Shown: positions 1 through 38,385 of the stretch, in pieces
Numbering within the stretch: position 1 is the first letter of the stretch
How the letters are laid out: each line of letters starts with the position of its first letter
Source: Giardia intestinalis
Lineage: Eukaryota
Strand: one strand, 5' to 3'
NCBI GenBank assembly: GCA_000002435.2
Contig: CM018790.1
Length of the DNA: 64,000 nucleotides
Made by a program: the position numbers and the translations under genes
Notes under the pieces: generated by a model
Database searches by the model: none
What the model saw: the letters and a program-made list of their open reading frames with translations, nothing else
What the model was told of the DNA's origin: nothing

Positions 1-3000
1 CTAAGAAGTTTGGCGGAAGATTGATAATGGTGTGCTTCTTGGCAGCTTCTTGATAGATCTGTGCCTTGAGCCATTCAGCATGCGGCCCTTTCCACTCAAA
101 CTTGGGGTTCTTCTGTGCATAGAAGGCCATGATAGCCAGAAAAGGATTTTCGGTGAGGGCAAGTGCTACAAAAGAGCTATGGTGCTGCGCAAACCAGGGA
201 AGAGACTCTGCAATAATAGTGTTATATCGCGCCAGAACCGTAACGACAAGCCATGCATATGTGATTCGGGGGCTGATGGAACAGATTTCCGGTATCAACT
301 CCGTCACATGCTCAAAGTTTGTTATTGCCTTTATCTGCGATCTCGTATAAATTTTTGTGAGGGGGAATCGACTATTAACAAGAAAGCAGTTTGCCAACTG
401 CTGTATTGATATCATCTTGATAAAATCTGGGTAGGAGTTCTTTCCAATGACAGTAATTCCAAGGGAACGCTCCATGCTTGTCGAGTGCTTGTTCATGAGG
501 TCCTGCTCAAATACATTAAGATTTGCAATGAAGAAGATTGATAGGGATGTCATTACACCAGCGGCAATCCGGGGCTCAAATAGACGAAACACGCGCTCAT
601 TGATATATGGAAGAATACATGCTGCTAAAAATGAGGTGATGGCGGCTGGATTCTGCTTCATTGCATAGATAAACGGATATGACTCACGCATACTCATGAG
701 TCCCTGGGCCTTAAGCTGCTCGGGCGTTAGTGCACCAGGCTTAGCTGCATTACCCTTGATCAGCATTTCTGTGTAACTTGCAACGGCTCGCTTAATGCGC
801 AGGTGCAAGTCTGGCATAAAGTTATCATCGGCTAAGATAACCGACGGAGTGTGCACTTGTGCATAACGCCACATTATCTCTGCAACCAATGAGAGAGAGC
901 GTCCAAGCTTCATAGCAATGCTTGTCCCTAAGGTGTCAACTATTGTACGCTGGAGGCATATGATGTTAATCTCCTTGTCAATATCTGGCTTATCAATGTC
1001 TTTCTTAATTAGGGTATCTATAAGGGCATATTTCCCGACAGCTGAAAAGGCAATGTCACGTCCAAGAGAGAAGATAGTGGTCAGAGCTTTCTCTTGATTA
1101 CTTTTCAAGGGAGAATCCTGCTTAAGACAATATGAAAGGCTCTGTGAATGTTGATGTGATGATTCGGCAGGCGTAGATGCAATGGTTCGAAGCGCTTGCA
1201 TGTCTGAGCAACTGGCCAAAAAGGTGAGGAGGTAGTTCTTAACGGAAAGGCTCAATCCAACAAGCAACTGTGATATGGCGGCATTACCAACTCGTGTGCA
1301 TTCGTCCGAAGACCTCCCTGCAGAGTTTTCCCCAAAAATGGATTCTATTAGTATACATGAGATCTTGTGAGCGTTTTCGGTCGGATACTCTGCCAAATCA
1401 ATTGTGTCCACTTCTTTCCTAGCAATTATCGAACACGGGCATGAGCATGAAAACATATCAAGGGTCGTTTGAGTCAGCATCCCCACGCGCATGCATGCAG
1501 TAGTGAAGTCTGTGCCGGGATAGAGGGAGAATACGACAGAATTGTTCCCGTTGTTGACATTTCTATTTATATAGAGTTTGCGAAGAAGAGAAATGTTTGC
1601 TCCGTTGGCGTTCGGGGCGCCGTAATTCAGAATAAGATACTTGTATTTATACCACTGTTCAGTCCCTGGGGCCACATCCCTCGCTTCACTAAACCGTTGC
1701 ATATTCTTCTGGATTGCTATGTCCAGTTCTCGTGAAAACTCTTCTGGTGGTAGCAGAAGATCCAGTTTGATGATATTCTTGGATATCTCGTCAATCAGCT
1801 CCATGCTTTTATCATCTTCTAGTCCATTAAGAGAGCTATTCAGGGCTTGCAAGTATCCAGTCCGCTTCCGCTTGCTTCTGTGGATCCCTTCTAGTAAGTA
1901 CGCAGCAGACAGCCCAAGGTGGCTGGGCACAACGTGTACGCAGCTGTTGATCATGTCAGACAATGCAACGCAGTCCAATGTCTGTCTGGCAGGGTCTGTG
2001 GGCTTCCACTCGACATTGAGCACTTTCAATATGATGTATGTCGGGAAGTCGATAGCCATGACCCTGATAATGTGATTCAGAAAGAAACTCTTGCCTGTCG
2101 TTTCGGCTGTGATAGAAATCATCATGGGGTCCTTGAGTAATTCGTCCATGGTTTTGTCAAAGCGATGGATATGCACAGGAATTCCATTATTATTCAGAAT
2201 AGAGACCATGGCAACGGTGAACGGGCTCAGACTGTTGTTCTCTGTATGCTTTTGGCAAGCTGCAAGGAGATCCTGCAGATATGGGGAGAGGTCACCACAT
2301 TCACCGTTTATCAAGCATTGCAAACACTTGTCTTCTGAGAGCCTATCGGTCTCGCTGAACAGCATATATGCAGAACATAGTAGTGCGTCTATATGCGCTG
2401 TTTGCACGACAGCCTCCATCACCATTATTTCTCGCTTGATAAGGTGCAGTAGAGAGTGCAGGAAATCCCTCATAATCACTGCCTCGGCGACCGCTGTTTG
2501 GATATTGTGATTGCGGGAGATGAAGCCCTTTTGGACTAGTCGTGTTGTGCCCGTATGCCGCTCAACAGATGAGACAGCATTTTCGACAATCCTGACCATA
2601 ACAGGTACAGTCAGTTTCGTTATCTCAATGATCTTGTGCTTCGTTTTGCTTGGCGCTGAAAGATACTCGTAAAAGAACAGCGCATTTGTAAGGATATCTA
2701 TATATTCAAAGAAGCTTCCTATTCGTTGATATATGGCATTTGTGAGCTGCGACGCCAATGCCGTAAAACGCATTAAAGAGACCGTGGGAACAGATGTGAA
2801 CCTACTTGCAAACTTGTAGATACTAATGGTTGCAGCTGCAAACGTGTGCTTGAATGCAGCCAAAAACTCAGTACGGTGATTGTTTCCTTTGCGGAAGATG
2901 TGGGCCGGGGGTTCATTAGGAAAGGTGCACCGAGATATATTGCAGATGCTGACTATATCTGCGAACGAGTACCTAATGAGATTCATCTTGTACTCTTCCT

Positions 3001-6000
3001 GCTTTGCCTTTATGTTCGAATTGCCCAGCAACAGCTGCTGCATATCGTGCATATGCTCTTCGTTGATAGATACACCTTGCATCCTAAATGACTCTAAGCC
3101 TGTCTCTATGTCATTTATCATTTCTATAGCAGGAGACTTTATGGAATTAAGCACAGGAACGCGGAGACTCTCTGAGTATAGTTGCGGCTTAACATAGGCA
3201 GAGCTATCCGACCCTAGGTACACGGCAGGGCCGACAGGAAGATCATCGACAATAATCACAGCTAGATTGATGCTTAGAAAACTGGCCAGCATGCGCCTAT
3301 CACACGTGAGATTCAAACCATACGATTGCGGGACTAGAGAACATATAACACCCATTTCTTCGGAGCTGAAGATGCCCTCCGCTGCATTCAAGGGCTCGAG
3401 GGTGCGGGTGAGCAGCTGGTAAACCGAGATTCCGGCAGCCCCCACCCTGCCAAGTGCCGACTTAGGAGCTATCACAGTTACATCGTGAGCCGATGGCAAA
3501 AGGAAGTCCTGCGCCTTCTCGCGCTTTTCCCTGGCAATAATCTGGTGAGGCTTGCCTCTAAGTCCAGACCATTCATTAATGGCCGGAGGAAGAAGAGAGT
3601 ACGCCCGTCCAGTTCCTATAGTGCGGGACGGAAGGCATGTCTCTAGAGCTGATTTGAAGCTGAGGCCCGTGGAAGGATTGAGTGGTGAGACGGTATCAGG
3701 ATAAAGAGCTTCTGGCTTTATCCCAAGGGCCAGGGCCATCGCTGTCCGTATCATGAGGAGCAGGAGCAGAAACTCATACTCCCTCATGTCAGCGTTAACC
3801 TTGTGCAACAAGTCCACGAAGTATTGGTTGAGAGGATCAGAGCTTACTATGACAGATGCGGCATCCAAAAGAACGCGCTGCTGAGTGCTACTGTTGTATA
3901 TGCTCCCAAAGCTGGAAACGGTAAACTTCTGGCAATTTGAGAGGGCGACAAGCTGGGAAAGAATTTCTGCATAGGACTGGAGCGTTCCGTTGGCGATGTT
4001 AATAGTATACTTAGCAGGCCGCAGACACATCATTGCAGCAAGGGAAAAGCCAGGAAACATAGCAGCCTTGTTAGGGTTCACCTTTGGCTTTGCCTGGAAA
4101 GAAATTCGCTGGGAAATCTCTTCTTCTACTGTTGCAGATGGACTGATAACAAGCGAAGCTGTTTGCTTCCGGAGTAGCCTGCGCCAGGAGCGAGTTTCTG
4201 CGTCGCAAATCGCAGATAGATATTCGCGAACATCTTGGTCCACATAGGTCGGCTGCTTTCCTGTGCGCATTGCTATTGTGTTCTGAACGTGGATATGTAT
4301 TTTTCCTGCGTAGGGAGCCGCTCTGTTGGCCAAGTAGATGCGTGTCCCATGAAACGGATCGTAATCATAGAAGTCCGAAAGACTCGATGTTGCAGGTCGG
4401 GGTGCAAAGTTATTTATCATAGACACAAACCTGGCCATGTTCATTTCTTTCTCTGTTTCAATAGTCACATAAAGATGAAAGACGCGCGAGAGCATGTATG
4501 GATCGTAAATAGGGAGTCTGCTGGCCAAGAGAAGAAAATGGCCAAACCAGAATGCATTGATCGTTGCGTATGACAATGCGATAAGCTCAGACGCATTAAC
4601 GTGGATTCCATCAACCTGGCAAAGTACACTGTTGAGCGTAGAGGCCATAAGAAGCGTGTTCTCTTTAACAAAGGGAGTGGTTTTCATAGACATGGAGGTC
4701 ATGCCCATAAACCTATGTGATGCTAGGGATTTGTGACCGAGGCGGATTCCGTGGTTGATAATGAACGCTTCCCAAGCGGGATAGAACGCGAAGTTTGATA
4801 TAAGCATCAGCTTTACGTCAGACCAAGGGCCCTCGCTTTTCTTCAACACTGTCGGGTGCATCTTTTTGACCTGCTCTGATCTATTGCCGGAACCTTCTTC
4901 TTTCTTGGATGCCTTGAGGCGTGGAGACTTAGAAGCCTTGGCCTTCTTCAGTTTCTCTGCGCGCCGTTGAGCTACTGCTTTCCCTACCGACTCGACATAC
5001 TCTTCATCCGTATCCAAATAGCCCAGGAAGCTTAGGCTCGCGAACCGCTCGATGACAGCGTCCATAAACTGGGCATCCATTTGGGCCATGCTGCGTAGCG
5101 AAGAAAATAGGCTATGGAGCGATGCTCGCAATAGCAGCTGATCATTATTGTACTTAATGATCATTGTGGGAGAGCACTCTTCTTTATCGATGCAATTATC
5201 TGCTCGAACGCTTTCTTCTTCCTCCCGGATGTGTAGCATCATCTTGTCTGGAACCACTGTAAGAGAATTCATTGTCATCACAAAGTTTTGATACATGTTA
5301 GAGAATACTGCATACGTCTCCGAGATAGAATTGGGCAAAGAGCCACGCACCAAGAAGTATCCGCTAACATATTGGGATATCCACGAGTCCGTTTGATGAG
5401 GAAATATGCGCTTACAAAGTCCATTCAGATACGCCTCAGTACACGGAGGCACTTCTATTTGCAGTCCGCAGTAACTTGTCAAGTTGTGATCTGCAGTACA
5501 CTCCACAATAATGGACATGTCTGAAAGGCTTATGGCACCTGTTTTGAGGTCGTACGGCATGTCCAGGTATATGGGGTGAGGCACCTCAGCGTTGGCGTCT
5601 AGTAGCAACATGTGGTCACGTAGCAGAAGCGCAAAGTGACCATTGATGGAAGCAGCTGGGTCAATATCACTGCAGTGAAAGTGGAGAGATGGGAAGCAAA
5701 GGGTGTCACAGTATTCTAGCACGGTGTTAGGAGAAGTGTTTTTCCCTATGTACGCATTCTTCCGCCGAGAGCTAGCAGCTGTGAGGTAATTGCGTTGAAG
5801 GCACCGAGATGAGAGAGAGCTGGCGATGGCATGTACGCTATTACTTGTTTGAACGTCGTTGAGAAGAAATGTGTCGGGAGCAAGTAAGTCACGGAATAGA
5901 AGCCTGGCCATATCTATAAGCCTAGACTTTCCACTGCCGCGCTGCCCGATCAGAGCCACAGTAATTGGGCTCAACATGGCGCATCCCAGAGCGACAATGA

Positions 6001-9000: not shown

Positions 9001-12000
9001 TAATGAAGTCCCAATAGGCCTTGCTGAGCTTATAAAGCTGGACAGTTGAGGTCTTGTCCAGTCCAAATGCAGATGAAATGATTCTGCAATACACCTCTAC
9101 CAGGTTGTCATTGGTCATGGGATGCAAGATAAAGCTAAGGGTTTGGCGCATGATCATATCAAGCGTGACGGCTGCCATGCAAAGCGCGTCTGTTCGTTCT
9201 TTCACGTGAGTGTAAACCATCGGGATGTCGCCCGCGACAAATTTGTATGTCAAGCCGCTGAACTGCCTCAGAAAGACAGATATCTCGTAGAAGGCCCGGC
9301 CATACTCTGGCGACAATCGGAGATAGAGGGCATCTGGGGACTCAATTTCCAAACTGATCACCCGTCTGATTCTAAATGGAGCAACAACCAGGTCGAGACG
9401 CTCGGACGCTGCATACGAGGAGGAATAATAATCAGTGACATTATTGGCCAAATAGTTGCTTTCATTGGTGAACGAGGTCTGCCCGAGCACAGGAAGAAGC
9501 ATATCCATACTAGTGGTGGTCGTATTAATAGGATCAACATAAAATACATCTTCCATACACGAAATCGGCGATAGTTCAGGTAAGAAAAACACTATGAAGC
9601 CTAGATTGGGGAAATCGGACATAGTGGCTCCTCTGGCAACTCCCGTGTCTTTGTCCATTACAACGAGCCCTGGGAGAGCCCCTTGCTTGACTCGCAAGTC
9701 ATTTGCCAAAGTGCATAGCTGTAATAGCTGCCAGCTTGGGAGATATTCAATGCCAACGACAATAGCTAAGCAGCCGTTTGCAACGGCCGACGACAATCTT
9801 TGGAGATTTGCGGCAAAGGTGTACTCGCTGAACGGGCAATATATTACGCGCATGAATAGGTACCGTGAAAGAGCTGTTGTAATCAAGTAGAGCTCCGTAT
9901 TGGAGTGCCCCTTTTCGCTGCTACAAACTAGGAATATAATCATGCGCTCAGATATAGCAGAGAAGATCTTGTTAAGAAGACCTAGTTGTCGGGGATTGAG
10001 CTTTAAAGTTGTGTCCAGAATAGTGGCTGCTCCAAGCCACTGTTGTGAGGCCTCAAAGGAATATGTTCCGTGTTCAGATGTAATGAAGATTTTGTTAGCC
10101 CCAGGCTGAAAGTAGACAAATGGAAAATGCACCGATGCAGACAACAATTGCATGCCCTTTGTTGACATAAATATACGCTTGCACTCAGTCAGCAAGTCAA
10201 ACCACTCGTGAAGCTTAGCTACGATAGCCTTTTTATGGATCGTTGGCTTGTGTGAGCAAATAACCTCCATCTCAATTGCTTTCCCAAAGTTCTTTAGAAG
10301 ATTCAGGAGAGGCATCATTGACTCTTTTGTGTGCTTTCCAGCAAATGCGTCACTAATCTCTTTTGAATATACTAATCTAATGTAAGAAGATAGTACTATT
10401 ATTGTAGAGCGAAAAAGAAAGTTGGAGAAAAAATTATCGAATATGGAGCAGCACTGTATTTGAACACCTATTATATCGTGTGGAGTAAGCGTGTGCAGCA
10501 CCTGTGGAGCGGTCAGTTGCTGAGGCTGTGTCGCTGACTGATTTGAAGAGTCGGGGTCTGACTCGGAAATTGCGATAAGGTGAGGATCATTTTCTAAGAA
10601 CCCTTTATAGTCATCACTACGCGAACGCTCATCTGGTTGGGATGTAGTATTAGAAGTATCTTGCTCACGCAAGGACTTCTCGATTGCATTGGTGTCGTCG
10701 CTGGACGAGCTATCATCAGATCCTATCTGTCCTCCAACCTTTTCCTGCATCCGCTTGCTAAGGGAATTGAGCTTGAATGATACTGAGTCTGTCTTCTGTT
10801 TAGTTGCAGTGTCGGGCACCATGCGTTCTTGTCGTAGCTTATTGAGCTCTGTTGCAAGAATTTTCTCATATCTCTGAATCTGATGATTAAATTCCTCCCA
10901 CGCTTTTGATATATTCTTCATTAGGGCGGGAGCAATGTTCCGAATTATTTTGTCTGAGACTAGAAACACGCCCTTTGGTAGCTCGATAGGCTCTAGCAAC
11001 TCTAGCACCTCATCCGATGATTCTAGAGCAGTAAGCTCACGTAGAGGCATGTTGGTCTCTTGGATATCTCCTGAGTGGGTTGCGTCAACGAGGGGTGGAC
11101 GTTGTGGAAGCAAGACGAATCCATCAACTCCACTCAGGACTTCGAAGTGTAAGCTTTGGACTGCTTTGAAGCAATTTCTCCGAATAAGGAACTCCCCACA
11201 ATATAGTATGGGAGTATTGCAGAAGAATAATGAGGAAGGATGGTAGTGATCATCGATCAGTGGCACAACTCTTTGGCACACTTTGGATCTTATCTGTGGG
11301 TTGGATGTGGCGACCTCATACCAGAGAGGCACCTCCATTGACGGATTTATGGATGCATTAATCTTTCGGAGATTAGTCAATATTCCATGATCGCGTACGG
11401 AGATAACTTTGTCATAGATCCTGTTTAGTCTCTTGCACAGTGTAGTAACGGCTTCATTGAAGGTTCTATCGAAAATGATCGAGAAAAGAGGCGTGAACGG
11501 TTTCGAAAGATATTTCATTGCCAGCTCCTTCCACTGGGAAAAAAGCTCCTTGAATGTGCAGAGATCTTCTTGTGAGATAAAAGTAACAGCTAGACCATCA
11601 TCAGTCAGAAACGGAGCTAGTTTCTCTCCATGTTGGGTGCTGATCGTTGTATATGTGCGGGTGTTCTTACTGAGACTTATGCATATACCGTACTTTGTCA
11701 CACACAGAAGGGCGTAGATGATGTGTGTGATACGGAACAAGGCCTTGTAGACGTAAAGCATGAGCCAGGCTCCGCACTCGAGATAGCGCGCCAATACCTC
11801 AATGTCTGGTGCATATCTACTTTGCTGAATTATGTCACTGTAACCTTGGTAACGGAGAGGTAAGTGCCTTGTCGTTCTAAGACTAGAGGTGCGTGCGATG
11901 TAAGCGTGGATACCGTGTAAAACTGAGAGCTCTGGCTGTACCTTCTTGTTACCATGACCTATGCTGTTTAATATATTGGAGATTGTGTAAAGGGACTCTC

Positions 12001-15000
12001 GCAGCAGGGCTTCTGAGTTGACGGGAGTAATAATTACTGCGAAAGATTTGCTATTCCACGCAGTGCTGGTTCTATTTGCCACTTCTGTTGCCATATCATA
12101 GGAGAACTCCATAAGTATATTATGCAGCAGGTCATCAATGACCGCTAGCTGCTCTCTGGCTTCCATGTCGATTGAGGCGTTGTTGGTGATGCATAGCAGA
12201 ACGGAGAAGAGGTCGCTATCCTTTTCGAAGGCCTCTAGAAAGCTAGAGACAGACAAGGAGAGGACAGCTCTTGCATACTGATCTTTAGAGACTATGATCT
12301 CATTCGTTGATACTATGTGTGCTGTGCTTTCATCCAGGTTACCGTCCTTAGCTGTCCACGTGCTTGCCTCGCTTGGTTCTCGCACGGTTGGCTGGACGGT
12401 ACCAGTGGAAATCTCGGTCTGAGAAGGAAGAGTGCATCCTACTAACTCTGCCAGTGCCTTGTAGTGATGCTCACAAAGGTGCGGACTACGGACAAAATAC
12501 ATAATGGTAATAGGGAGTGCATATGCAACTATCATCTCCTGAGCATAGTCGACATATTCTGTCCACGATGCATATGTTAAAACTATTAGGTTGTCGTTCG
12601 TTTTTGTCTCAGGCTTCAACGTGGGTCCGACGCCCTTCAGCCTTTTTGCTTTATCGGTTAGAGGAACACTAGCAAGGGACATTATGTTTGCACTAGTTAA
12701 CGAGTTCACAGCATCACCGTCTTGTTCGGTTCCAATGGCAGCTAAGTTGTGACCTTCGATGGACCTGTTCTGAGAGCTCTGCGAAGGTTTCAAGATTGTT
12801 AGGTTTGAGCTTGGTATAGAAAAACTATGCTGATCTGGATTCGAAACCCTGTGCCGTATGACTTTGATAATATCTGCGGTTTGCTCCAGCAGGTGAAGTA
12901 AGGGTGAACTAGGATAGTCAGCAACTGCTACTGTAACCCCCTTTTCGTGCAATGCAACAAGGTCGGAGACATTGGCTACAACAGAGCAAAGCGGATGGCA
13001 TATAGAGAGTAACGTGTACGGGCTATATGTGCGATGTAGATCCTTACTAGGGTGCTTATTTGCGACGCCAGAGACTGAGTCCTGCCTTTTGTGTATATCC
13101 TGCCCTATGAAGCGCTTCCACTTATCAATGGAAGCCTGGATGATGCATATTTCTTGCAAGATAAAGCGCAGCTCAGCCAGAATTTGTATAATATTGAATT
13201 CCGTCTTGACCTTCTTCTTAATGATTGGGCGCCGATAAAACATTCCCTCTGTAAAGAGTGAATCGCTAGGCACCACCTTGTGAAGCTCAAGTCCCTGTCG
13301 CTTTAGCGTGCCGATGGTTCTAGAAAGTTTTAGTTCTGATGCCAGGAGCGCGTCTACTCCACTCACAGGCAAAGCCCTACTGCTGGGAACAGCTTCTTCA
13401 GATAGCTGGTCGGCCAGGGTATAAGATAGGGAATCCTCTTGGGCGTCCTTGTTCAGTTCGCCTCTGGCAGATGCAGATGCCGACACCGACGGATCGGTGG
13501 AAGGTGCGGCTACGGAAGGTTGTCCACTGGTTTGGCTATTCTTTAAAAGAAATGTGTAGTCGACGTTGCCCATGATGGCAACGTTTATGCCTCCTCCCTT
13601 CCCAAATAGCTCCTCCCTAGAATGATGCTTTGTACAAATCGGCAAGGCTGTTTTTAGTGCAAGGGATAATAAAAACTCTCTCTCGTACTCTAATATCTGT
13701 GCCTCAGTCACGTACAAGCTAGACGCATCAATGTCGGAGCTGTTAAGGCTCAGATCAAATTGCAGCATTGTTAGGTTAAAATCTGTCGATAGATAGGGGT
13801 TTTCCTGTTCAAATTCGGTGGCAGAATCGTGTGCAGCCTTCATTGAATGGTAGGTTAAGCAAAGCACCTCGGCGACGGAGTTAACCAGATGATTAGTTAT
13901 GGTCTGGAGGTGCTGTTCAGTTGAGCGAATGAAGCGACTATAAATAAACGCTCTGTGCACAAGGTCACTAGACGTGGATTGAGTCATGGAGATGATGTCC
14001 AATAGAAGAATCACCGAAGAAAAGAAATTAAAAGAAAGGATAGTGTCTCCAAGAGAAGGGTCTGTTTCATTGCATACCAGGAGAAACTCAACCACCTTTG
14101 AAGTATCATACTTAATCTCTCGTTGCTTGCAAACAGGCGCGTAGTTGGTTTCTCTAGTGCCGATAACGGTATCAGTCTGGGGACGCAAGTAGAATGGTGG
14201 CATGTTATCGGGTCCATAGATTGGCTGCTCCTGTCTATTAGATGGACTGACATAGTATGCTGCAAAGACCTGTGTGAGCTGCATAGCTTGATCATTTAGG
14301 ACACCCAGTGCTGCCTTACCTTCACGATAGGGAGGGGACTCGTTGGCAAGTGCAGACATCGCACGGAAGTCCCGGAATATACGCTCCACAAGGCTTGAGA
14401 CACTGTCAAGGATAGAGATAGACAAGCACGAGCTGCACTGCGTAACTATGGTGTGTATATAGTCAAAGACGCGTGCAAATGCAGATTTCAGCCTGCTCAT
14501 GGATAGATACTCCTTAACCTTGTCAATGTCTCTCAGCAGCTCTGGGTCTAGCATGAACGAAAAGAAGAGCGTGTGCAGTGCATGTATTTCTGAGGAGACA
14601 TAGTTAATGAAGTTGAGAAGGACAGAGATTGACCGGGATCTGATTGTGTTTTTCGTCTCATCGACAAGCTGGAGAAATTGATCCCGGATAATAGAGACGG
14701 CTATGCTTGCTGGACCAAAGTGAATCGCAGTTTCAAAAGGTTGTCTTCTGCTCTGTTGTGCAAAGTCCTTCAGAGGCATGGTGTCTCCTAGCTCCAGTGA
14801 TTGTGACTCTATAGGTTTCTGACTTCTCCCAGTGAGGTCAGTGCAAGGCTGGGGATCTACTACAACAGAAGGTAACTGCATGGTCTCGTGCTCTGACTGG
14901 CTTGGCTGCATGGACAGAAGAGCTGCCTGGATCTGGTCTAACTTACTGATAAAATCTCCCAGACACCGCATATCTGGAGGTGTGATAGAATCTGTTTCCT

Positions 15001-17695
15001 GAAAGATAATAAATTGCTGAATATCCTTTAGCCCAAGTTTCTCCTCTGGCGTATGAGGTTTCAGAGCCTCTAAAAGCTTGACAGATGCATTCGAAGACAT
15101 AAAGTTGAGGAACTCAGAAGAGAGCGTTGATATTTGATTGGTTATTCCGGTGAAATGAGTCACAACGTGCTCTAAAGGTGAAATAAGGAAGCGAGCCAAT
15201 GGTGTGGCGAGCACGCGCCGCATGTCTTCCGTGTCTGTAAGAAAGACACAGCGGTTGCTAGTATAGAATGCTAGAGCCTCATCACTTAGTGATGCCGTTA
15301 CAATCCTTATTACCTCGGTGTCTGTGGTGTCATTTGTCTGGCCCGAAGTGTCACTTGAAGCTTGATTGTTGGAGCCTTGCGATAACACTGACAGGGGTGA
15401 GCCTAGAGATGGGAAATCCTGGACGAATTCATAGGTCTTGTTCGCTAGTTTTTCCAGCGTCTTAAGCAGGCGTTTCTCCTGCAACTGGTGAGAGCAAAAG
15501 TCTGCTATCTGAAGATCTTTCTTAGTTGTGCTATCATAGAATAGGTATGGACAAAAAAAAGAGAGGAGAAGGCGCATATACTCGACTGGTTGAAAGTGTG
15601 CCCTGATAGTCTGGATAGAGGAGTCGAAAAGTACACTCTGCGAAGCCAGGTTGTACAAAAGGGACAATCGCATCGGCCGCGTAATGCGGAGACGCGGCTC
15701 AAACGAAAAGTATTGCATAAAGTCCGGGGATCTGTTGAATAAGAGATCAGGATTGAAAGAGAGCTTCTTAGATAGTTCAACTAGATTAAGGTAATAATCT
15801 GTGCAGCCATGAACGTCTAATAGGCGTGTCAATGTCTGTGAATACACTAGGATGGCAATTGTGTATATGGCAGATAGGCTGTGGGATGTTTGAGGGTCTT
15901 TGAAAACCATTGTTGTAGCTTTACGAGTGGGAACTGTAGTTGGGATAGATGTTCTTATGCTTGTGCCCAAGATAGCAGGCTTTGATGGCATCGTGGAGAC
16001 CTCGAACGAAGCCTTGCTGGGCTGCTCAGTGGATGGAAGCCTCTGATCCTCTAAAGTCGGTTGTTGGTATCTTGTTATAGATGCATAGACCTCTGGGGTA
16101 TTGAGTGGAGCAACCGTGATTCGTCTTGCTCCCAAGAGAGCGTAGTGAATCGCCTCTAGTAACTCGTGCTTATCGCGCTCCTGTGCCAGATCGACGAGCT
16201 TGGAGATCCGCTCGGGAGAAAAGTCTCCGCCAACTCCCAACATCTCAACAAGAGCTTGACTGGACGCCCCCATGAGAGCGTTAGATGAGTGCAAACGTTG
16301 AGTGGTAGCGAAGCTTTCTTCTCGCCTTTTAGACTTGAGTGAAAACGATGCCCTACTGAAATCTGGAACAGGGTGTCCAGTCCCAACTGATGTAACAGCA
16401 GCAGACAGAGAGCTCTCGGATGTGTCAGTGTCAGTATCAGTATCAGACAATTCCTTATCAACTGGAATCAGCTCAGTTGCTGAGCAGGAAAGTACGTTAT
16501 CAGGATCCTCCTCAGCAAGGCGCTGTTCAGCTCTTAAGAGTTGCATTATTCTAGAAGAAGTATATGTCCTAAGCCGAAGCGTTACATGCACACAAAACAG
16601 GAAGAGTCCAAATGGAAGTAATGCACGCACGAAAAGCTCAACGGTAGAAATATAGGGCTCTCCAGAGAGAAGGCTTACAGCTGCGCACATATTCTTATGA
16701 TAGTCCTCTAGTTTGTCTATTCTGATCTTTAAATGCTTTGTTCGCTCCTCGGCGTCTGCGATATCAACAAGGAACTGCTGAAAGCAGGACAAACATAGCG
16801 AAAATCTAGATAGGAGTTCTGTGGATGGAACAGGCTGCTGCTGGTGAAATAGATCTGCATGCAAGTTGGCCAACGATGTTAGAAGAAACAGACTCATTGT
16901 GTAGGTAGGCAGAAACCGAAGCTCATGGGAGAGGTATGTTTGCAACAGTTTAAACCGCTTTCTGCGTAGCTCGAAAGCCTGCTCTTGGATGCTATCTGCT
17001 CTGAATCTTTCTTTAGAAACGATTTTATCCATAAGAGTAAGATCGTACATAGGGTTACTAGGAAAGTAGAAATATCGATTGGCATATACCATCTGGGCCG
17101 TTTGGTAATTAATCTTGATATCCTCAAGAACGTGTTCTCGGTCAGGCAACATTCTCGGTAGGTGTTGCATGATGCTTGCAAACATGCGTTTCGTAAGTTT
17201 AAAAGGTTTGTAACTGGACGGAACGATTGTACTTAGGGCTGTCGGTGCTAGATACAGAGTAGCAAAAGAGGCAATTCTGTCACGCTCGTCCGTCAAGATG
17301 GTCGGAGCTGCCTTAATCGCGTCCTGTCCATGTGTCTTGGTATTTTCAGAATTATCATTAGCTTGTGAGATTTGATAAAGCAATTGGTCATAGAGCTCGG
17401 AATCATAGATCGCTCGCACCTGGTGAAGGGGCACAGACGTTGTTATCGCCAAGGTGGGGGAGAGATAAACAAGCGCTGTTGCCCTTCCGTGTCGATATTG
17501 GATGTCTCGTATCTTTGCATAGAATGTGCATGGCCCGTGGGTAAAGTAGAGGGCGTTTTCATCCAAAGTGGATCCTAAATAAACAAGCGCGTTAGCATCC
17601 CCTGGCTGGGGTGGCTGATCATCTGGCCGGTCCGGGGCCTTGTCTGTGGTGCCTATGTGCGGCTGAAGGCAGTCCAGGACCCAGGATCTGCGCAT
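1..17695 (-). CDS. Giant hypothetical protein, 5' end in window (ATG at 17695..17693), 3' end beyond window start; >=5,898 codons; contains P-loop NTPase (Walker A) motif
   Basis: Manual translation of reverse strand from ATG at 17695 (TAA 8 codons upstream) gives MRRSWVLDCLQPHIGTTDKAPDRPDDQPPQPGDANALVYLGSTLDENALYF... with no stop through >500 codons. The same frame (codon phase p=2 mod 3) was re-checked at 5.9 kb (VALIGQRGSGKSRLIDMARLLF = Walker A GxxGxGKS) and at 1-480 (still open). The ORF track shows no complete minus-strand ORF >=60 aa in this frame and only short plus-strand ORFs across 1-17.7 kb, consistent with one uninterrupted ORF running off the edge. Contains coding microsatellite (TDTDTDT) at ~16425-16449. 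Confidence 0.75.
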   Translation of the reverse strand, partial: MRRSWVLDCLQPHIGTTDKAPDRPDDQPPQPGDANALVYLGSTLDENALYFTHGPCTFYAKIRDIQYRHGRATALVYLSPTLAITTSVPLHQVRAIYDSELYDQLLYQISQANDNSENTKTHGQDAIKAAPTILTDERDRIASFATLYLAPTALSTIVPSSYKPFKLTKRMFASIMQHLPRMLPDREHVLEDIKINYQTAQMVYANRYFYFPSNPMYDLTLMDKIVSKERFRADSIQEQAFELRRKRFKLLQTYLSHELRFLPTYTMSLFLLTSLANLHADLFHQQQPVPSTELLSRFSLCLSCFQQFLVDIADAEERTKHLKIRIDKLEDYHKNMCAAVSLLSGEPYISTVELFVRALLPFGLFLFCVHVTLRLRTYTSSRIMQLLRAEQRLAEEDPDNVLSCSATELIPVDKELSDTDTDTDTSESSLSAAVTSVGTGHPVPDFSRASFSLKSKRREESFATTQRLHSSNALMGASSQALVEMLGVGGDFSPERISKLVDLAQERDKHELLEAIHYALLGARRITVAPLNTPEVYASITRYQQPTLEDQRLPSTEQPSKASFEVSTMPSKPAILGTSIRTSIPTTVPTRKATTMVFKDPQTSHSLSAIYTIAILVYSQTLTRLLDVHGCTDYYLNLVELSKKLSFNPDLLFNRSPDFMQYFSFEPRLRITRPMRLSLLYNLASQSVLFDSSIQTIRAHFQPVEYMRLLLSFFCPYLFYDSTTKKDLQIADFCSHQLQEKRLLKTLEKLANKTYEFVQDFPSLGSPLSVLSQGSNNQASSDTSGQTNDTTDTEVIRIVTASLSDEALAFYTSNRCVFLTDTEDMRRVLATPLARFLISPLEHVVTHFTGITNQISTLSSEFLNFMSSNASVKLLEALKPHTPEEKLGLKDIQQFIIFQETDSITPPDMRCLGDFISKLDQIQAALLSMQPSQSEHETMQLPSVVVDPQPCTDLTGRSQKPIESQSLELGDTMPLKDFAQQSRRQPFETAIHFGPASIAVSIIRDQFLQLVDETKNTIRSRSISVLLNFINYVSSEIHALHTLFFSFMLDPELLRDIDKVKEYLSMSRLKSAFARVFDYIHTIVTQCSSCLSISILDSVSSLVERIFRDFRAMSALANESPPYREGKAALGVLNDQAMQLTQVFAAYYVSPSNRQEQPIYGPDNMPPFYLRPQTDTVIGTRETNYAPVCKQREIKYDTSKVVEFLLVCNETDPSLGDTILSFNFFSSVILLLDIISMTQSTSSDLVHRAFIYSRFIRSTEQHLQTITNHLVNSVAEVLCLTYHSMKAAHDSATEFEQENPYLSTDFNLTMLQFDLSLNSSDIDASSLYVTEAQILEYEREFLLSLALKTALPICTKHHSREELFGKGGGINVAIMGNVDYTFLLKNSQTSGQPSVAAPSTDPSVSASASARGELNKDAQEDSLSYTLADQLSEEAVPSSRALPVSGVDALLASELKLSRTIGTLKRQGLELHKVVPSDSLFTEGMFYRRPIIKKKVKTEFNIIQILAELRFILQEICIIQASIDKWKRFIGQDIHKRQDSVSGVANKHPSKDLHRTYSPYTLLSICHPLCSVVANVSDLVALHEKGVTVAVADYPSSPLLHLLEQTADIIKVIRHRVSNPDQHSFSIPSSNLTILKPSQSSQNRSIEGHNLAAIGTEQDGDAVNSLTSANIMSLASVPLTDKAKRLKGVGPTLKPETKTNDNLIVLTYASWTEYVDYAQEMIVAYALPITIMYFVRSPHLCEHHYKALAELVGCTLPSQTEISTGTVQPTVREPSEASTWTAKDGNLDESTAHIVSTNEIIVSKDQYARAVLSLSVSSFLEAFEKDSDLFSVLLCITNNASIDMEAREQLAVIDDLLHNILMEFSYDMATEVANRTSTAWNSKSFAVIITPVNSEALLRESLYTISNILNSIGHGNKKVQPELSVLHGIHAYIARTSSLRTTRHLPLRYQGYSDIIQQSRYAPDIEVLARYLECGAWLMLYVYKALFRITHIIYALLCVTKYGICISLSKNTRTYTTISTQHGEKLAPFLTDDGLAVTFISQEDLCTFKELFSQWKELAMKYLSKPFTPLFSIIFDRTFNEAVTTLCKRLNRIYDKVISVRDHGILTNLRKINASINPSMEVPLWYEVATSNPQIRSKVCQRVVPLIDDHYHPSSLFFCNTPILYCGEFLIRRNCFKAVQSLHFEVLSGVDGFVLLPQRPPLVDATHSGDIQETNMPLRELTALESSDEVLELLEPIELPKGVFLVSDKIIRNIAPALMKNISKAWEEFNHQIQRYEKILATELNKLRQERMVPDTATKQKTDSVSFKLNSLSKRMQEKVGGQIGSDDSSSSDDTNAIEKSLREQDTSNTTSQPDERSRSDDYKGFLENDPHLIAISESDPDSSNQSATQPQQLTAPQVLHTLTPHDIIGVQIQCCSIFDNFFSNFLFRSTIIVLSSYIRLVYSKEISDAFAGKHTKESMMPLLNLLKNFGKAIEMEVICSHKPTIHKKAIVAKLHEWFDLLTECKRIFMSTKGMQLLSASVHFPFVYFQPGANKIFITSEHGTYSFEASQQWLGAATILDTTLKLNPRQLGLLNKIFSAISERMIIFLVCSSEKGHSNTELYLITTALSRYLFMRVIYCPFSEYTFAANLQRLSSAVANGCLAIVVGIEYLPSWQLLQLCTLANDLRVKQGALPGLVVMDKDTGVARGATMSDFPNLGFIVFFLPELSPISCMEDVFYVDPINTTTTSMDMLLPVLGQTSFTNESNYLANNVTDYYSSSYAASERLDLVVAPFRIRRVISLEIESPDALYLRLSPEYGRAFYEISVFLRQFSGLTYKFVAGDIPMVYTHVKERTDALCMAAVTLDMIMRQTLSFILHPMTNDNLVEVYCRIISSAFGLDKTSTVQLYKLSKAYWDFIKASLFSLNLLHDHSSDGKLGLAMGYNASTAVQSVVHARSTFAKYFSEHLSKYLAPRLLNYVTLFGQMHQLAPQFVIDIIFANELLKSGRPLLAVVPQSSYIRAYTAVLTSVKHWDVSYVTDSRSLRAALKRLTYGDSAMSSESLLEPIPGKVAGEQEKARKSEHLIVVAPPTSHALLRMFDQLFGASLHYPIILDEFGCTYYQFDIGRGPYFMICVTISMLQDFGPLIDLFTHRVVLLPSIEGSDGCRKILHGSLFIDTPHLRFIAKMNVDLWKSELKRRKVESRDALFLLQGLESLMATASKQTTYMTRVIQRIAVLPTFINSIIGFLYDTMAHVFNCGRSVDEVFLIRSMFYFFLLRFNVVTILRKPLPSQFLLKSLEYSQAARGETPQAMKNRVSEIAKHKAYEDGCSPMAFTGTFAFTLVSHVRECVEVLMRLKEALAKQQPGSVIPSLPEPFGMTLDQRAQILTFLDTIGVTIPKEILATTNIYSCSSSSSRLLKKAICGPESSGVKTAQAIAKQALVQKQHMQRLHRAFYSSFTSTSHTILADEVWPFLDVAGFSLQEIQELDDHVKQKSSGTTNLTSIINTALLMNAERDVLQLGMGFCGSLAYELSSSFMLEAVFSPETHAEAFTNLVVPLVIAFWNACSLFVTTYDDGKNKVSKGTTNYARWLGKKYDALTTEFQSIEKLTQAMYCGVSPFVTLLLLEANSPLVHPGLLKHYDTLYRLDLGALNHGLSSEVIISNFRTFSKKVVALLPKEFPVNMSSSTTQNYNPGTIANSCFSYIDFTYGLGQNKKAVSYKKYLCKAEFRLYEIGHGIMKRIHEFRDRTFVEKSIDMITTRLVERKKHNLAVAKRKATEEHAKIIHAKEDALFTKLVTTTASKTQQSAAAQDSSKPLRLIKPANVDFYMSSSDEEELVTDKTLSKDKEQEESDSSESNDTADNLEQAKKAMNLELTKLSKLSRNERTAIDLELHDYDKGESVSVQCSNPTITVFSPHHCAIIVALGCAMLSPITVALIGQRGSGKSRLIDMARLLFRDLLAPDTFLLNDVQTSNSVHAIASSLSSRCLQRNYLTAASSRRKNAYIGKNTSPNTVLEYCDTLCFPSLHFHCSDIDPAASINGHFALLLRDHMLLLDANAEVPHPIYLDMPYDLKTGAISLSDMSIIVECTADHNLTSYCGLQIEVPPCTEAYLNGLCKRIFPHQTDSWISQYVSGYFLVRGSLPNSISETYAVFSNMYQNFVMTMNSLTVVPDKMMLHIREEEESVRADNCIDKEECSPTMIIKYNNDQLLLRASLHSLFSSLRSMAQMDAQFMDAVIERFASLSFLGYLDTDEEYVESVGKAVAQRRAEKLKKAKASKSPRLKASKKEEGSGNRSEQVKKMHPTVLKKSEGPWSDVKLMLISNFAFYPAWEAFIINHGIRLGHKSLASHRFMGMTSMSMKTTPFVKENTLLMASTLNSVLCQVDGIHVNASELIALSYATINAFWFGHFLLLASRLPIYDPYMLSRVFHLYVTIETEKEMNMARFVSMINNFAPRPATSSLSDFYDYDPFHGTRIYLANRAAPYAGKIHIHVQNTIAMRTGKQPTYVDQDVREYLSAICDAETRSWRRLLRKQTASLVISPSATVEEEISQRISFQAKPKVNPNKAAMFPGFSLAAMMCLRPAKYTINIANGTLQSYAEILSQLVALSNCQKFTVSSFGSIYNSSTQQRVLLDAASVIVSSDPLNQYFVDLLHKVNADMREYEFLLLLLMIRTAMALALGIKPEALYPDTVSPLNPSTGLSFKSALETCLPSRTIGTGRAYSLLPPAINEWSGLRGKPHQIIAREKREKAQDFLLPSAHDVTVIAPKSALGRVGAAGISVYQLLTRTLEPLNAAEGIFSSEEMGVICSLVPQSYGLNLTCDRRMLASFLSINLAVIIVDDLPVGPAVYLGSDSSAYVKPQLYSESLRVPVLNSIKSPAIEMINDIETGLESFRMQGVSINEEHMHDMQQLLLGNSNIKAKQEEYKMNLIRYSFADIVSICNISRCTFPNEPPAHIFRKGNNHRTEFLAAFKHTFAAATISIYKFASRFTSVPTVSLMRFTALASQLTNAIYQRIGSFFEYIDILTNALFFYEYLSAPSKTKHKIIEITKLTVPVMVRIVENAVSSVERHTGTTRLVQKGFISRNHNIQTAVAEAVIMRDFLHSLLHLIKREIMVMEAVVQTAHIDALLCSAYMLFSETDRLSEDKCLQCLINGECGDLSPYLQDLLAACQKHTENNSLSPFTVAMVSILNNNGIPVHIHRFDKTMDELLKDPMMISITAETTGKSFFLNHIIRVMAIDFPTYIILKVLNVEWKPTDPARQTLDCVALSDMINSCVHVVPSHLGLSAAYLLEGIHRSKRKRTGYLQALNSSLNGLEDDKSMELIDEISKNIIKLDLLLPPEEFSRELDIAIQKNMQRFSEARDVAPGTEQWYKYKYLILNYGAPNANGANISLLRKLYINRNVNNGNNSVVFSLYPGTDFTTACMRVGMLTQTTLDMFSCSCPCSIIARKEVDTIDLAEYPTENAHKISCILIESIFGENSAGRSSDECTRVGNAAISQLLVGLSLSVKNYLLTFLASCSDMQALRTIASTPAESSHQHSQSLSYCLKQDSPLKSNQEKALTTIFSLGRDIAFSAVGKYALIDTLIKKDIDKPDIDKEINIICLQRTIVDTLGTSIAMKLGRSLSLVAEIMWRYAQVHTPSVILADDNFMPDLHLRIKRAVASYTEMLIKGNAAKPGALTPEQLKAQGLMSMRESYPFIYAMKQNPAAITSFLAACILPYINERVFRLFEPRIAAGVMTSLSIFFIANLNVFEQDLMNKHSTSMERSLGITVIGKNSYPDFIKMISIQQLANCFLVNSRFPLTKIYTRSQIKAITNFEHVTELIPEICSISPRITYAWLVVTVLARYNTIIAESLPWFAQHHSSFVALALTENPFLAIMAFYAQKNPKFEWKGPHAEWLKAQIYQEAAKKHTIINLPPNFL

Positions 17696-17829: not shown

Positions 17830-18657
17830 CTAGTCATCAACATCCTCGAACATGGTAGTGCAGATCTCAGTCATCCACGCCTCTAAATAGGTGCCGGTGA
17901 ATGCACCAACATACGGGTACCAGGTGTTCTGATAGAACATGAAGAGACTGGGGTACGCCTTTATGCCCATCTGATTGCACCATGGCTGGAGCCGAGACTC
18001 TGAAGAGGGGTCATAGCAGTCATAGACCAGATATGTCGCCCGGTTTGAGTTTGTGGTGGCTGCTTGCTTGTAAAAGTACCATATCTCTGCAGTGCGTGAC
18101 TCCACTTGCGGATCACTAGAATCTAATAAGAGTAGGACGGGCGGGTGAAATGTAGGGTCAGTAGGTGGGACCGAAACACCTGCAGCGAGCTTCCTACGTG
18201 AAGCACGGACTGCTGGAAGCATTTTCTTTTGCATTCGTGCATAGATCTCTGGGATTTGATCAACGTTGGTAACATTGCGCACCATTGATGAATACCCCAT
18301 GTTGAAATTACTATAGTAGAAGTTCAGGGCATTGAAGTAGCTAAACGAATAGGGCATACGTTCTGCCCGGCCTTCTTCCCGGAAGAAAATGAAGAAGATC
18401 GGCTCAAAGTGCTCCTCTCCCATGAAGATGTCTTCATTGCCGTGAACCTGCCTATCTACGAGGTACAATCTGTCCACTTCGTCACCAATGCGAAGCATCT
18501 CGTCCCATTGTTTTGGTGTGACTCGATCGCCATCAAATAAAATAACACAAAGATCGTTTTTGTCTTCTATAGCCATGGCGATAGTAGCATTGTATGCTTG
18601 GGAAAATGCGCCTGCAAGGAGAGATATGAGGAAGACAATGTGAGAAGAAATCCCCAT
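17830..18657 (-). CDS. Secreted/ER hypothetical protein with N-terminal signal peptide and thioredoxin-fold-like C-terminal segment (degenerate, single-Cys WCNQM; YPSLFMF cis-Pro-loop-like)
   Basis: ATG verified (cat at 18655-18657). N-terminus MGISSHIVFLISLLAGAFSQA is a classical signal peptide; C-terminal ...QPWCNQMGIKAYPSLFMFYQNTWYPYVG resembles PDI/thioredoxin WCxxC...YPT(L/I)xxF pattern but spacing is atypical, so family call is weak. Confidence 0.55.
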   Translation of the reverse strand: MGISSHIVFLISLLAGAFSQAYNATIAMAIEDKNDLCVILFDGDRVTPKQWDEMLRIGDEVDRLYLVDRQVHGNEDIFMGEEHFEPIFFIFFREEGRAERMPYSFSYFNALNFYYSNFNMGYSSMVRNVTNVDQIPEIYARMQKKMLPAVRASRRKLAAGVSVPPTDPTFHPPVLLLLDSSDPQVESRTAEIWYFYKQAATTNSNRATYLVYDCYDPSSESRLQPWCNQMGIKAYPSLFMFYQNTWYPYVGAFTGTYLEAWMTEICTTMFEDVDD

Positions 18658-38323: not shown

Positions 38324-38385
38324 AGTCAATCTCAGAATCAATGATTGGATTAAAAAACCAAAAAGATCTTTTAAACAAATTTAGA
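38324..38385. promoter_or_regulatory. Candidate A/T-rich bidirectional promoter/initiator region shared by the divergent GTPase paralogs (if paralog B uses ATG at 38386; only 17 bp if it uses ATG at 38341)
   Basis: Sequence agtcaatctcagaatcaatgattggattaaaaaaccaaaaagatcttttaaacaaatttaga between the two divergent start codons; Giardia promoters are short A/T-rich initiator elements. Confidence 0.4.

What the first reader, a model, noticed from the sequence alone, without database searches (positions are those of the whole stretch)
1..17695. Unidentified giant ORF (>17.7 kb, >=5,898 aa, both ends not in window) with an isolated Walker-A ~3,900 aa from its N-terminus
Seen in sequence: a single reading frame is open from the ATG at 17695 to position 1. 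I verified it by hand at the 5' end, at about 5.9 kb and at 1-480. The ORF track also shows no competing ORF of 60 aa or more in any other frame on either strand across this span. The only catalytic motif I could find is LIGQRGSGKSRLID at about 5950-5910.

Inference: the N-terminal 500 aa (S/T-rich, with a TDTDTD microsatellite) do not resemble dynein, midasin, Vps13 or PIKK N-termini. A P-loop this deep in the protein does not fit the midasin or dynein domain order. It could be a lineage-specific giant ATPase.
Basis: partly seen in the sequence, partly recalled or inferred. Interest (0 to 1): 0.65.

Follow-up and report, generated by a model that had tools for sequence, protein, structure and literature searches.

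The report
Cryptic dynein-like giant protein of Giardia
The 17.7-kb open frame is a real Giardia gene for a 6,939-residue protein that no sequence search can name. Predicted structure shows it is built from dynein-type AAA+ modules in which only one nucleotide pocket survives, so it is most likely a hidden, probably non-motile relative of the dynein motor.

Summary
The minus-strand frame from ATG 17695 to nt 2 has 5,898 codons and no stop. Four independent assemblies reproduce its first 3,288 codons. Gene calls on longer contigs give a 6,939-aa product, so only the 3' end lies outside the window. The organism is Giardia intestinalis WB.

Sequence methods see nothing: Pfam, phmmer and five family profiles against PDB, and hhalign against a dynein AAA1 profile. 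An exhaustive HMMER scan finds only giant relatives in diplomonads.

Modules 1 and 2 have lost Walker A.

Best reading: a very divergent dynein-heavy-chain derivative that binds nucleotide at one site and is probably not a motor. Linker, stalk, AAA5/6 and the C-terminal domain were not tested.

The parts
2..17695 (-). Open reading frame: the first 5,898 codons of a 6,939-codon gene. The 3' end lies left of the window.
   Evidence: No stop codon. Start-codon context. The full product length of 6,939 aa comes from gene calls on Logan contigs. Four assemblies give identical sequence over 3,288 codons.
17693..17695 (-). Start codon ATG.
   Evidence: It is the first ATG after in-frame stops. The same start is used by the gene calls on L001-L004.
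9956..17692 (-). N-terminal region, aa 2 to about 2580. It has no detectable domain and is weakly conserved (7-24% column identity to relatives). If the dynein reading is right, this would be the tail plus linker. It was not modelled.
   Evidence: No Pfam match, no PDB match, conservation profile. The tail/linker role is inference only.
16421..16444 (-). Codon microsatellite encoding DTDTDTDT (aa 418-425), inside an S/T-rich low-complexity stretch.
8756..9943 (-). Module 1 (aa 2585-2980): an alpha/beta AAA-type core followed by a helical lid. It is proposed to be the AAA1 equivalent. The Walker A position reads CSSEKGHSN, with no GK[ST]. The Walker B position reads VVGIEY (hhhhGxE).
   Evidence: AF2 model 2, strands at aa 2617-2763 with pLDDT 74-88. 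Foldseek hits for this tile are all dynein. Motif table. The module number is inferred.
8276..8743 (-). Module 2 (aa 2985-3140): a second alpha/beta core, proposed to be the AAA2 equivalent. The Walker A position reads VVPQSSY, with no lysine. The Walker B position reads IVVAPP, with no acidic residue.
   Evidence: AF2 model 2, strands at aa 2989-3135. Motif table.
6044..8266 (-). Long, mostly helical region between modules 2 and 3 (aa 3144-3884). It contains a conserved G.G..GS / WN block at aa 3500-3545 and an acidic, Ser-rich linker around aa 3808-3880.
   Evidence: AF2 model 2, helices at model residues 544-1075 with mixed confidence. Family alignment. Its function is unknown.
4916..6028 (-). 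Module 3 (aa 3890-4260): the P-loop module, proposed to be the AAA3 equivalent. It has a strand-Walker A-helix arrangement, a Walker B strand FPSLHFH followed by CSDID, an invariant LLLRDH motif, and the strand SIIVEC.
5924..5947 (-). Walker A motif GQRGSGKS (aa 3917-3924). This is the only strict P-loop in the protein.
   Evidence: G....GK[ST] is at the aligned position in 11 of 11 family members, and no other position is shared by all.
3506..4915 (-). Helical region between modules 3 and 4 (aa 4261-4730). It is mostly predicted at low confidence.
   Evidence: AF2 model 1, residues 377-846, with pLDDT below 50 over much of it.
3116..3493 (-). Module 4 (aa 4735-4860): the fourth alpha/beta core, proposed to be the AAA4 equivalent. 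It keeps a remnant P-loop, VIAPKS (Lys-Ser kept, glycines lost), and a Walker-B-like strand, AVIIVDD.
   Evidence: AF2 model 1, strands at aa 4738-4744 and 4811-4817 with pLDDT 64-87. The remnant P[KR]S or QKS is present in 10 of 11 members and hhhh[DEN]D in 9 of 11.
2..3115 (-). Conserved downstream region (aa 4861-5898). Long helices are predicted at aa 4940-5084 and the rest was not modelled. In a dynein this would hold the stalk, the microtubule-binding domain and AAA5.
   Evidence: Conservation of 17-30% column identity. Helices at model residues 1056-1199. The assignment is inference only.

Best explanation
The ORF is a real single-exon gene of Giardia intestinalis encoding a 6,939-aa protein. 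It derives from, or is most closely related in fold to, the dynein heavy chain.

After a long, weakly conserved N-terminal region of about 2,580 aa come at least four tandem AAA+ modules, each an alpha/beta core with a helical lid, separated by large helical insertions. The first two modules (proposed AAA1 and AAA2) have lost Walker A and the acidic Walker B pair. In a dynein this removes the main ATP-hydrolysing engine. The third module (proposed AAA3) keeps a perfect Walker A in every family member but no canonical Walker B glutamate. The fourth keeps only a Lys-Ser remnant plus an acidic Walker B.

The likely mode of action is therefore not a processive ATP-driven motor. It is more likely a dynein-shaped scaffold or regulator that binds, and at most slowly turns over, nucleotide at a single site, presumably on the diplomonad microtubule cytoskeleton.

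Shown: the gene, its length, the family, the AAA+ fold, dynein as the best structural match, and the motif states. Inferred: the module numbering, the loss of motility, and any link to microtubules.
For: Gene reality: open frame, start context, a 6,939-aa product call, and identical sequence in four assemblies.

Organism: neighbouring genes match Giardia intestinalis WB exactly.

Family: giant relatives of 4,331-7,705 aa were found. They include six Spironucleus salmonicida paralogues, Hexamita inflata proteins, and three known only from Logan assemblies. They align along the whole length.

Fold, tile 2: the independent tile aa 2601-3800 shows two more alpha/beta modules. Its Foldseek top 50 are again all dynein-containing entries, the best at E 4.1e-4, and it aligns over 755 columns to the AAA1-3 fragment 7z8h.

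Module order: tile 1 aligns over 917 columns to 7mi3 (AAA2-4 only) but over only 410 columns to 7z8h (AAA1-3 only). This fits tile 1 being AAA3+AAA4 and tile 2 being AAA1+AAA2. About 1,855 aa remain after aa 5084. A canonical dynein needs roughly 1,450 aa for stalk, AAA5, AAA6 and the C-terminal domain (that figure is from my own knowledge).

Motifs: Walker A is present in 11 of 11 members in module 3 only, and modules 1 and 2 lack it in all members.

Outside hint: one Hexamita cluster member carries the UniRef name 'Dynein heavy chain'.

Precedent: non-motile dyneins with degenerate AAA1 have been described, namely DNAHX and DNHD1 (PMC11785096).
Against: No sequence-level similarity to dynein was found by any method. 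Pfam gave nothing on the protein or its relatives. Family HMMs against PDB gave nothing. hhalign of the modules against a dynein AAA1 profile matched only the P-loop itself, at probability 19% over 26 columns.

The AF2 models are shallow and only partly confident, built from 8-9 sequences with mean pLDDT 54.6 and 62.0. Foldseek TM-scores are low (about 0.16) and rmsd values are large, so the match is to modules in order and not to a ring. The E-values for tile 2 are modest.

The dynein-specific parts (linker, stalk with microtubule-binding domain, buttress, AAA5/6, C-terminal domain) were not tested.

The four modules show no detectable similarity to each other by hhalign.

The module numbering depends on alignment lengths, not on residue-level superposition.
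Confidence: 0.6

Rival explanations
1. It is a tandem-AAA+ giant that is not derived from dynein. It would be either a very divergent midasin- or RNF213-type protein, or an independent diplomonad fusion of clade-7 (MoxR/dynein/midasin-type) AAA+ modules. On this reading dynein tops the lists only because it is the best-sampled multi-AAA chain in the PDB.
Confidence: 0.2
2. It is a working dynein-type motor whose engine has moved. ATP turnover at module 3 (with module 4) drives the cycle in place of AAA1, and the protein substitutes for the cytoplasmic dynein-1 that Giardia lacks.
For: Walker A in module 3 is under strict conservation in 11 of 11 members. An acidic residue follows the Walker B strand in 7 of 11 members. 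Module 4 keeps Lys-Ser and D-D. Giardia is reported to lack DHC1 (PMC5100056).
Against: There is no canonical Walker B D-E in module 3, and four paralogues have no acidic residue there. Spironucleus has six paralogues and is also reported to keep a DHC1, so simple replacement is unlikely. No dynein is known to move without AAA1 hydrolysis (my own knowledge). No microtubule-binding domain has been shown.
Confidence: 0.08
3. This is the first reader's view: a lineage-specific giant ATPase with one isolated P-loop, unrelated to the known giant AAA proteins.
For: All sequence searches are empty, and homologues are found only in diplomonads and unnamed assemblies.
Confidence: 0.07
4. It is not a real gene, but an assembly artefact, a pseudogene or a chance open frame.
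For: None was found.
Against: There are 5,898 codons without a stop. Independent assemblies give the same sequence. Full-length homologues at 17-38% identity carry conserved motifs.
Confidence: 0.01

Closest known systems
Dynein heavy chain motor domain (cytoplasmic dynein-1/-2 and axonemal dyneins; PDB 8pqw, 9mfv, 8fd6, 4ai6, 6rla)
   Different: No sequence-profile similarity exists to any dynein Pfam family or PDB chain. The proposed AAA1 and AAA2 have no Walker A, and only one P-loop survives. The protein is about 2,300 aa longer than typical dyneins and has helical insertions of 700 and 470 aa between modules. The linker, stalk with microtubule-binding domain, AAA5/6 and C-terminal domain have not been demonstrated.
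Non-motile dyneins DNAHX (sea urchin) and DNHD1 (mammals), described in PMC11785096
   Same: They have dynein architecture with multiple insertions and a poorly conserved AAA1 site lacking catalytic residues, and are proposed to be structural or regulatory rather than motile.
   Different: DNAHX is an animal-specific offshoot of the outer-arm alpha chain and is recognisable as a dynein by sequence. It is stated to be absent from protists. The Giardia family shows no sequence similarity to it and is restricted to diplomonads and their relatives. The degeneration goes much further here, with AAA1 and AAA2 both dead. Any relationship would be convergent loss of function, not orthology.
Midasin (Rea1/Mdn1)
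'Orphan' diplomonad dyneins of Kollmar 2016 (PMC5100056)
   Same: That survey notes unclassified Giardia and Spironucleus dyneins, one of which has a tail that aligns to no known class.
   Different: Those orphans were found by sequence similarity to dynein motors. This protein has none. So it is probably not among them, but this could not be checked because the accession lists were not read.

Membership tests
AAA+ ATPase fold (P-loop NTPase, ASCE) | An alpha/beta core with a strand-Walker A-helix arrangement and a Walker B strand, followed by a helical lid. | tested here: met
Dynein heavy chain | The best structural match is to a dynein motor domain, with modules aligned in order. | tested here: met
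Dynein heavy chain | Sequence-profile membership in the dynein Pfam families (DHC_N1/N2, AAA_6, AAA_5, AAA_7, AAA_8, MT, AAA_9, AAA_lid, Dynein_C). | tested here: not met
   No hit at the gathering threshold on the protein or on 9 or more relatives. The only traces are AAA_5 at E 0.075 and AAA_7 at E 0.28, each in one member. Family HMMs against PDB are empty. hhalign against an AAA1 profile is negative.
Dynein heavy chain | Six AAA+ modules in one chain. | tested here: inconclusive
   Four modules were found within the 2,400 aa that were modelled. Residues 5085-6939 were not modelled, and 1,041 of them lie outside the window.
Dynein heavy chain | A catalytically competent AAA1 with Walker A GK[ST] and Walker B D-E. 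| tested here: not met
   Module 1 reads CSSEKGHSN at the Walker A position and hhhhGxE at the Walker B position. No member has GK[ST] there. This depends on the inferred module numbering.
Dynein heavy chain | A linker domain N-terminal to AAA1. | not tested
No Pfam DHC_N2 hit was found.
Dynein heavy chain | A coiled-coil stalk with a microtubule-binding domain between AAA4 and AAA5, plus a buttress. | not tested
   Only long helices at aa 4940-5084 were seen, at the end of tile 1. A crude heptad scan found no strong coiled coil in the window, which is weak evidence either way.
Dynein heavy chain | A dynein C-terminal domain. | tested here: inconclusive
   This region lies outside the window and was examined in relatives only. 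A profile of the last 260 aa found no PDB or Pfam hit. By eye, the conserved motifs (W.I.G....LGD.L.., RG.ELVGA.YD, VPVP...GG) resemble my recollection of dynein motifs. That is a lead, not a test.
Midasin (Mdn1/Rea1) | An AAA ring near the N-terminus, a D/E-rich region, and a C-terminal MIDAS (VWA) domain. | tested here: not met
DNAHX / DNHD1 non-motile dyneins | Orthology to the animal DNAHX or DNHD1 clades, which are recognisable as dyneins by sequence. | tested here: not met
   The exhaustive HMMER scan returned only diplomonad-type relatives. DNAHX is reported absent from protists. Only the functional analogy, a degenerate AAA1, holds.

The most novel reading that the evidence does not exclude
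Diplomonads carry a previously unrecognised, sequence-invisible family of dynein-derived giants: one in Giardia, six in Spironucleus, several in Hexamita. In this family the canonical engine (AAA1) is dead and only the AAA3-equivalent pocket is kept. Either these are a new class of nucleotide-gated structural dyneins of the diplomonad microtubule cytoskeleton, or, more radically, they are a re-wired motor driven from AAA3/AAA4 that covers for the cytoplasmic dynein-1 Giardia lacks.
Probability: 0.3. Interest if true: 0.8.

Novelty: new variant of a known kind. Interest (0 to 1): 0.6.

Why it matters
Dynein inventories of Giardia and other protists are built by sequence similarity and would miss this family entirely. 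If it is confirmed, Giardia's largest "hypothetical protein" becomes a dynein derivative. That changes the count and the evolutionary picture of dyneins in a lineage reported to lack cytoplasmic dynein-1. It would also add a protist example of dynein pseudo-enzymes alongside the animal DNAHX and DNHD1. The strictly conserved AAA3-type pocket next to dead AAA1 and AAA2 sites is a natural experiment on what the regulatory site does on its own. Practically, the result shows that tiled structure prediction followed by fold search can annotate giant orphan proteins that HMM methods cannot.

Tried and rejected
1. The search for homologous proteins was uninformative for this family. A 1,501-aa query and a family alignment returned nothing, not even sequences that were in the query. 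The tool appears blind to giant proteins.

2. Sequence-profile routes to dynein were all negative. Five family HMMs were run against PDB. Pfam was run on relatives. hhalign was run against an AAA1 profile and between modules.

3. My first guess was that the conserved block at aa 2588-2653 is a degenerate AAA1. HMM and hhalign did not support it, but AF2 later showed an alpha/beta core there, so I kept it as module 1.

4. My second guess was that the P-loop module is AAA2, with a dead AAA1 at aa 3440-3790 (GMGFCGS / FWN). I rejected it because that stretch is predicted to be helical and two alpha/beta modules lie upstream.

5. I considered the P-loop module being AAA4 and the next module AAA5. 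I rejected this because tile 1 aligns over 917 columns to a fragment holding AAA2-4 only, and because too much sequence (about 1,900 aa) would remain for AAA6 plus the C-terminal domain.

6. Internal repeats were sought by BLAST: none are significant. Hydrophobic segments that look like transmembrane helices were not pursued; one of them (aa 3896-3914) immediately precedes the Walker A and another (aa 3533-3551) lies in the conserved G.G..GS / WN block.

7. A literature search for the gene by neighbour accessions or by protein length found nothing.

8. Looking up the short fragment hits gave no taxon names.
Full report
**1. The observation**

Translating window 17695 to 1 on the minus strand gives 5,898 codons with no stop. 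Upstream of the ATG at 17695 the same frame has several stops, the nearest 9 codons away, so this ATG is the first possible start. The motif LIGQRGSGKSRLID is at aa 3915-3928 (nt 5912-5953). It holds the only strict Walker A in the protein. The DTDTDTDT run is at aa 418-425.

Two details in the finding are wrong. First, there are 39 ORFs of 60 aa or more in other frames across the span, the longest 150 aa, when bacterial start codons are allowed. They look like noise. Second, the 5' end is inside the window, so only the 3' end is missing.

Looking up the neighbouring 275-aa protein found it on many public contigs. The adjacent gene there is called as a 6,939-aa product with no Pfam family on record. 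Four of these independent assemblies reproduce the first 3,288 codons with no stop and at most one substitution. The gene is therefore real, and about 1,041 C-terminal residues lie left of the window.

**2. Organism and context**

The neighbours are exact matches to Giardia intestinalis (WB, assemblage A) proteins: CCT-theta, GL50803_003951 and a class-3 lipase. The rest of the window is ordinary, densely packed Giardia coding sequence.

**3. Sequence searches find no known family**

- Pfam on both halves of the protein gives only a sub-threshold P-loop match (AAA_29, E 0.11).
- phmmer against all PDB chains gives nothing.
- There are no significant internal repeats.
- The word-indexed homology search was unusable for this protein.
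- An exhaustive HMMER scan of 1.84 billion representative proteins with aa 3850-5049 found 25 hits. Ten are giant proteins of 4,331-7,705 aa.
- The named ones are six Spironucleus salmonicida paralogues and a Hexamita inflata cluster. All are annotated as hypothetical, except one Hexamita member whose UniRef name is 'Dynein heavy chain'. Three others are known only from Logan assemblies.
- The family aligns along its whole length at 17-38% identity to the Giardia protein. The best-conserved blocks are aa 2500-3300, 3900-4200, 4600-5300 and 5800 onwards.
- Each of the 11 members has one positionally conserved Walker A, at the same aligned position; two members also carry an extra, unaligned match. 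By composition a single match would be expected about 0.2 times by chance. The conservation, not the motif, is the evidence.

**4. Profile methods still see nothing**

- HMMs built from five family blocks found no PDB chain below E of about 0.4 and no dynein at all. The blocks were aa 2480-3010, aa 3885-4560, aa 3885-5084, aa 2601-3800, and the last 260 aa of the relatives.
- Pfam scans of the relatives gave only weak generic P-loop hits.

At the sequence level the family is an orphan.

**5. Structure prediction and fold searches**

Tile 1: AlphaFold2 on aa 3885-5084 with a 9-sequence family alignment gave mean pLDDT 54.6. Two alpha/beta domains were confident (pLDDT about 65-87).
- One starts with strand TVALI, then the Walker A, then a helix. 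It continues with a Walker B strand FPSLHFH and the strands GAISL and SIIVEC.
- The other has strand DVTVIAP followed by K-S, and strand LAVIIVD followed by D.

Foldseek against the PDB returned dynein motor domains at ranks 1-44. The best was 8pqw_A at E 2.5e-8 and probability 1.0, with about 950-1,040 aligned columns. The first non-dynein hit, Rubisco activase, was at rank 45.

Tile 2: the independent, non-overlapping tile aa 2601-3800 gave mean pLDDT 62.0 and pTM 0.51. It shows two further alpha/beta cores, at aa 2601-2775 and aa 2989-3135. Each is followed by helices, and then comes a long helical region. Its Foldseek top 50 are again all dynein-containing entries. The best is at E 4.1e-4, and it aligns over 755 columns to 7z8h, a fragment holding only AAA1-3.

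The AAA+ fold is therefore secure. Dynein is the best match for two independent parts of the protein.

**6. Module numbering (inference)**

Four alpha/beta modules lie at about aa 2585, 2985, 3890 and 4735.
- Tile 1 aligns over 917 columns to 7mi3 (AAA2-4 only) but over only 410 columns to 7z8h (AAA1-3 only).
- Tile 2 aligns over 755 columns to 7z8h.
- The simplest consistent assignment is modules 1-4 = AAA1-4.
- That leaves about 1,855 aa after aa 5084 for the stalk, AAA5, AAA6 and the C-terminal domain. A canonical dynein uses about 1,450 aa for these, by my own knowledge.
- Alternative numberings were considered and fit worse. These were the P-loop module as AAA2, or as AAA4 (see Tried and rejected).

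**7. Motif states across the 11 relatives**

| Module | Walker A position | Walker B position |
|---|---|---|
| 1 | CSSEKGHSN; no GK[ST] in any member | hhhhGxE in 7 of 11 |
| 2 | PQ[ST]SY; no lysine | no acidic residue |
| 3 | G....GK[ST] in 11 of 11 | [ST][DE] in 7 of 11 |
| 4 | P[KR]S or QKS in 10 of 11 | hhhh[DEN]D in 9 of 11 |

Module 3 also carries the motif LL.RDH (RDH in 10 of 11, RNH in one).

If module 1 is AAA1, the principal hydrolytic site of a dynein is gone. What selection preserves is nucleotide binding at the AAA3-equivalent site, without a canonical catalytic glutamate.

**8. Interpretation**

The best-supported reading is a highly divergent dynein-heavy-chain derivative that is probably not a motor. 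It would be a dynein-shaped scaffold or nucleotide-gated regulator. Its very long N-terminal region and large helical insertions are specific to the lineage.

There is precedent for dyneins that have given up motility through AAA1 degeneration, namely DNAHX and possibly DNHD1 (PMC11785096). Those are animal proteins recognisable as dyneins by sequence, so the resemblance is functional and not orthology.

Giardia is reported to lack cytoplasmic dynein-1, whereas Spironucleus keeps it (PMC5100056). Since Spironucleus has six paralogues of this family, simple replacement of DHC1 is unlikely. That paper also mentions an orphan diplomonad dynein with an unalignable tail. I could not establish whether it is related to this family.

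**9. Caveats**

- The models rest on 8-9 sequences and are only partly confident.
- TM-scores are low, so the match is to modules in order and not to a closed ring.
- None of the dynein-specific elements has been tested: linker, stalk with microtubule-binding domain, buttress, AAA5/6 or C-terminal domain.
- The C-terminal motifs of the relatives look dynein-like to my eye, but neither the PDB profile search nor Pfam supports this.

I therefore put 0.6 on the dynein-derived, non-canonical reading and 0.2 on a different tandem-AAA+ origin.

**10. Verdict**

The ORF and the motif are real. The 'isolated P-loop in an unidentifiable giant' is the one surviving nucleotide pocket of a cryptic dynein-like AAA+ array. 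I rate it a new variant of a known kind, of moderate to high interest, and directly testable by full-length tiling and by localisation in Giardia.

Noticed in passing
window 35828-38341 (-) and 38341-40254 (+): Two head-to-head ORFs that both carry AIG1/septin/MMR_HSR1-type GTPase signatures abut at nt 38341. The minus-strand ORF begins with a mechanical TTG start. They may be a divergently transcribed pair of paralogous GTPases with almost no intergenic space.
   Followed up: no
window 22809-29075 (+): A 2,088-aa protein whose only recognisable domain is an N-terminal protein kinase (residues 75-283). The remaining 1,800 or so residues are unannotated.
   Followed up: no
window 16421-16444 (-): A perfect codon microsatellite encoding DTDTDTDT inside an S/T-rich, poorly conserved stretch of the giant protein. 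It is a likely site of length polymorphism between isolates.
   Followed up: no
L004:4840-14705 (Logan SRR10662878) versus window: Across four independent assemblies, the first 3,288 codons of the giant gene differ by a single substitution, T3003I in one sample. Conservation within the assemblage is very high.
   Followed up: partly
window 7061-7198 (-), aa 3500-3545: A family-wide conserved block, G.G..GS followed about 40 residues later by an invariant W-N. It lies in a region predicted to be helical between modules 2 and 3, and its role is unexplained.
   Followed up: partly
relatives P0035, P0037, P0038, P0041, P0042, P0043 (Spironucleus salmonicida): Spironucleus has six paralogues of this family in at least two deep groups. 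P0041, P0042 and P0043 are 29-38% identical to each other and 21% or less to the rest. They have lost the acidic residue after the module 3 Walker B strand, but all keep the Walker A.
   Followed up: partly
window 55478-57922 (-): An 814-aa ORF with a weak, sub-threshold match to the Giardia VSP family (E 1.3e-6, 28 bits against a cut-off of 31.4). It may be a Cys-rich membrane protein rather than a true VSP.
   Followed up: no
window 17830-18657 (-): The immediate upstream neighbour, GL50803_003951, is named 'thioredoxin family protein' by one source for an orthologue, but it gave no Pfam hit here.
   Followed up: no
tool behaviour: The word-indexed protein search returned no giant proteins even when their own sequences were in the query alignment. 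For a dynein query it listed only fragments of 319 aa or less. Negative results from it for very long proteins should not be trusted.
   Followed up: yes
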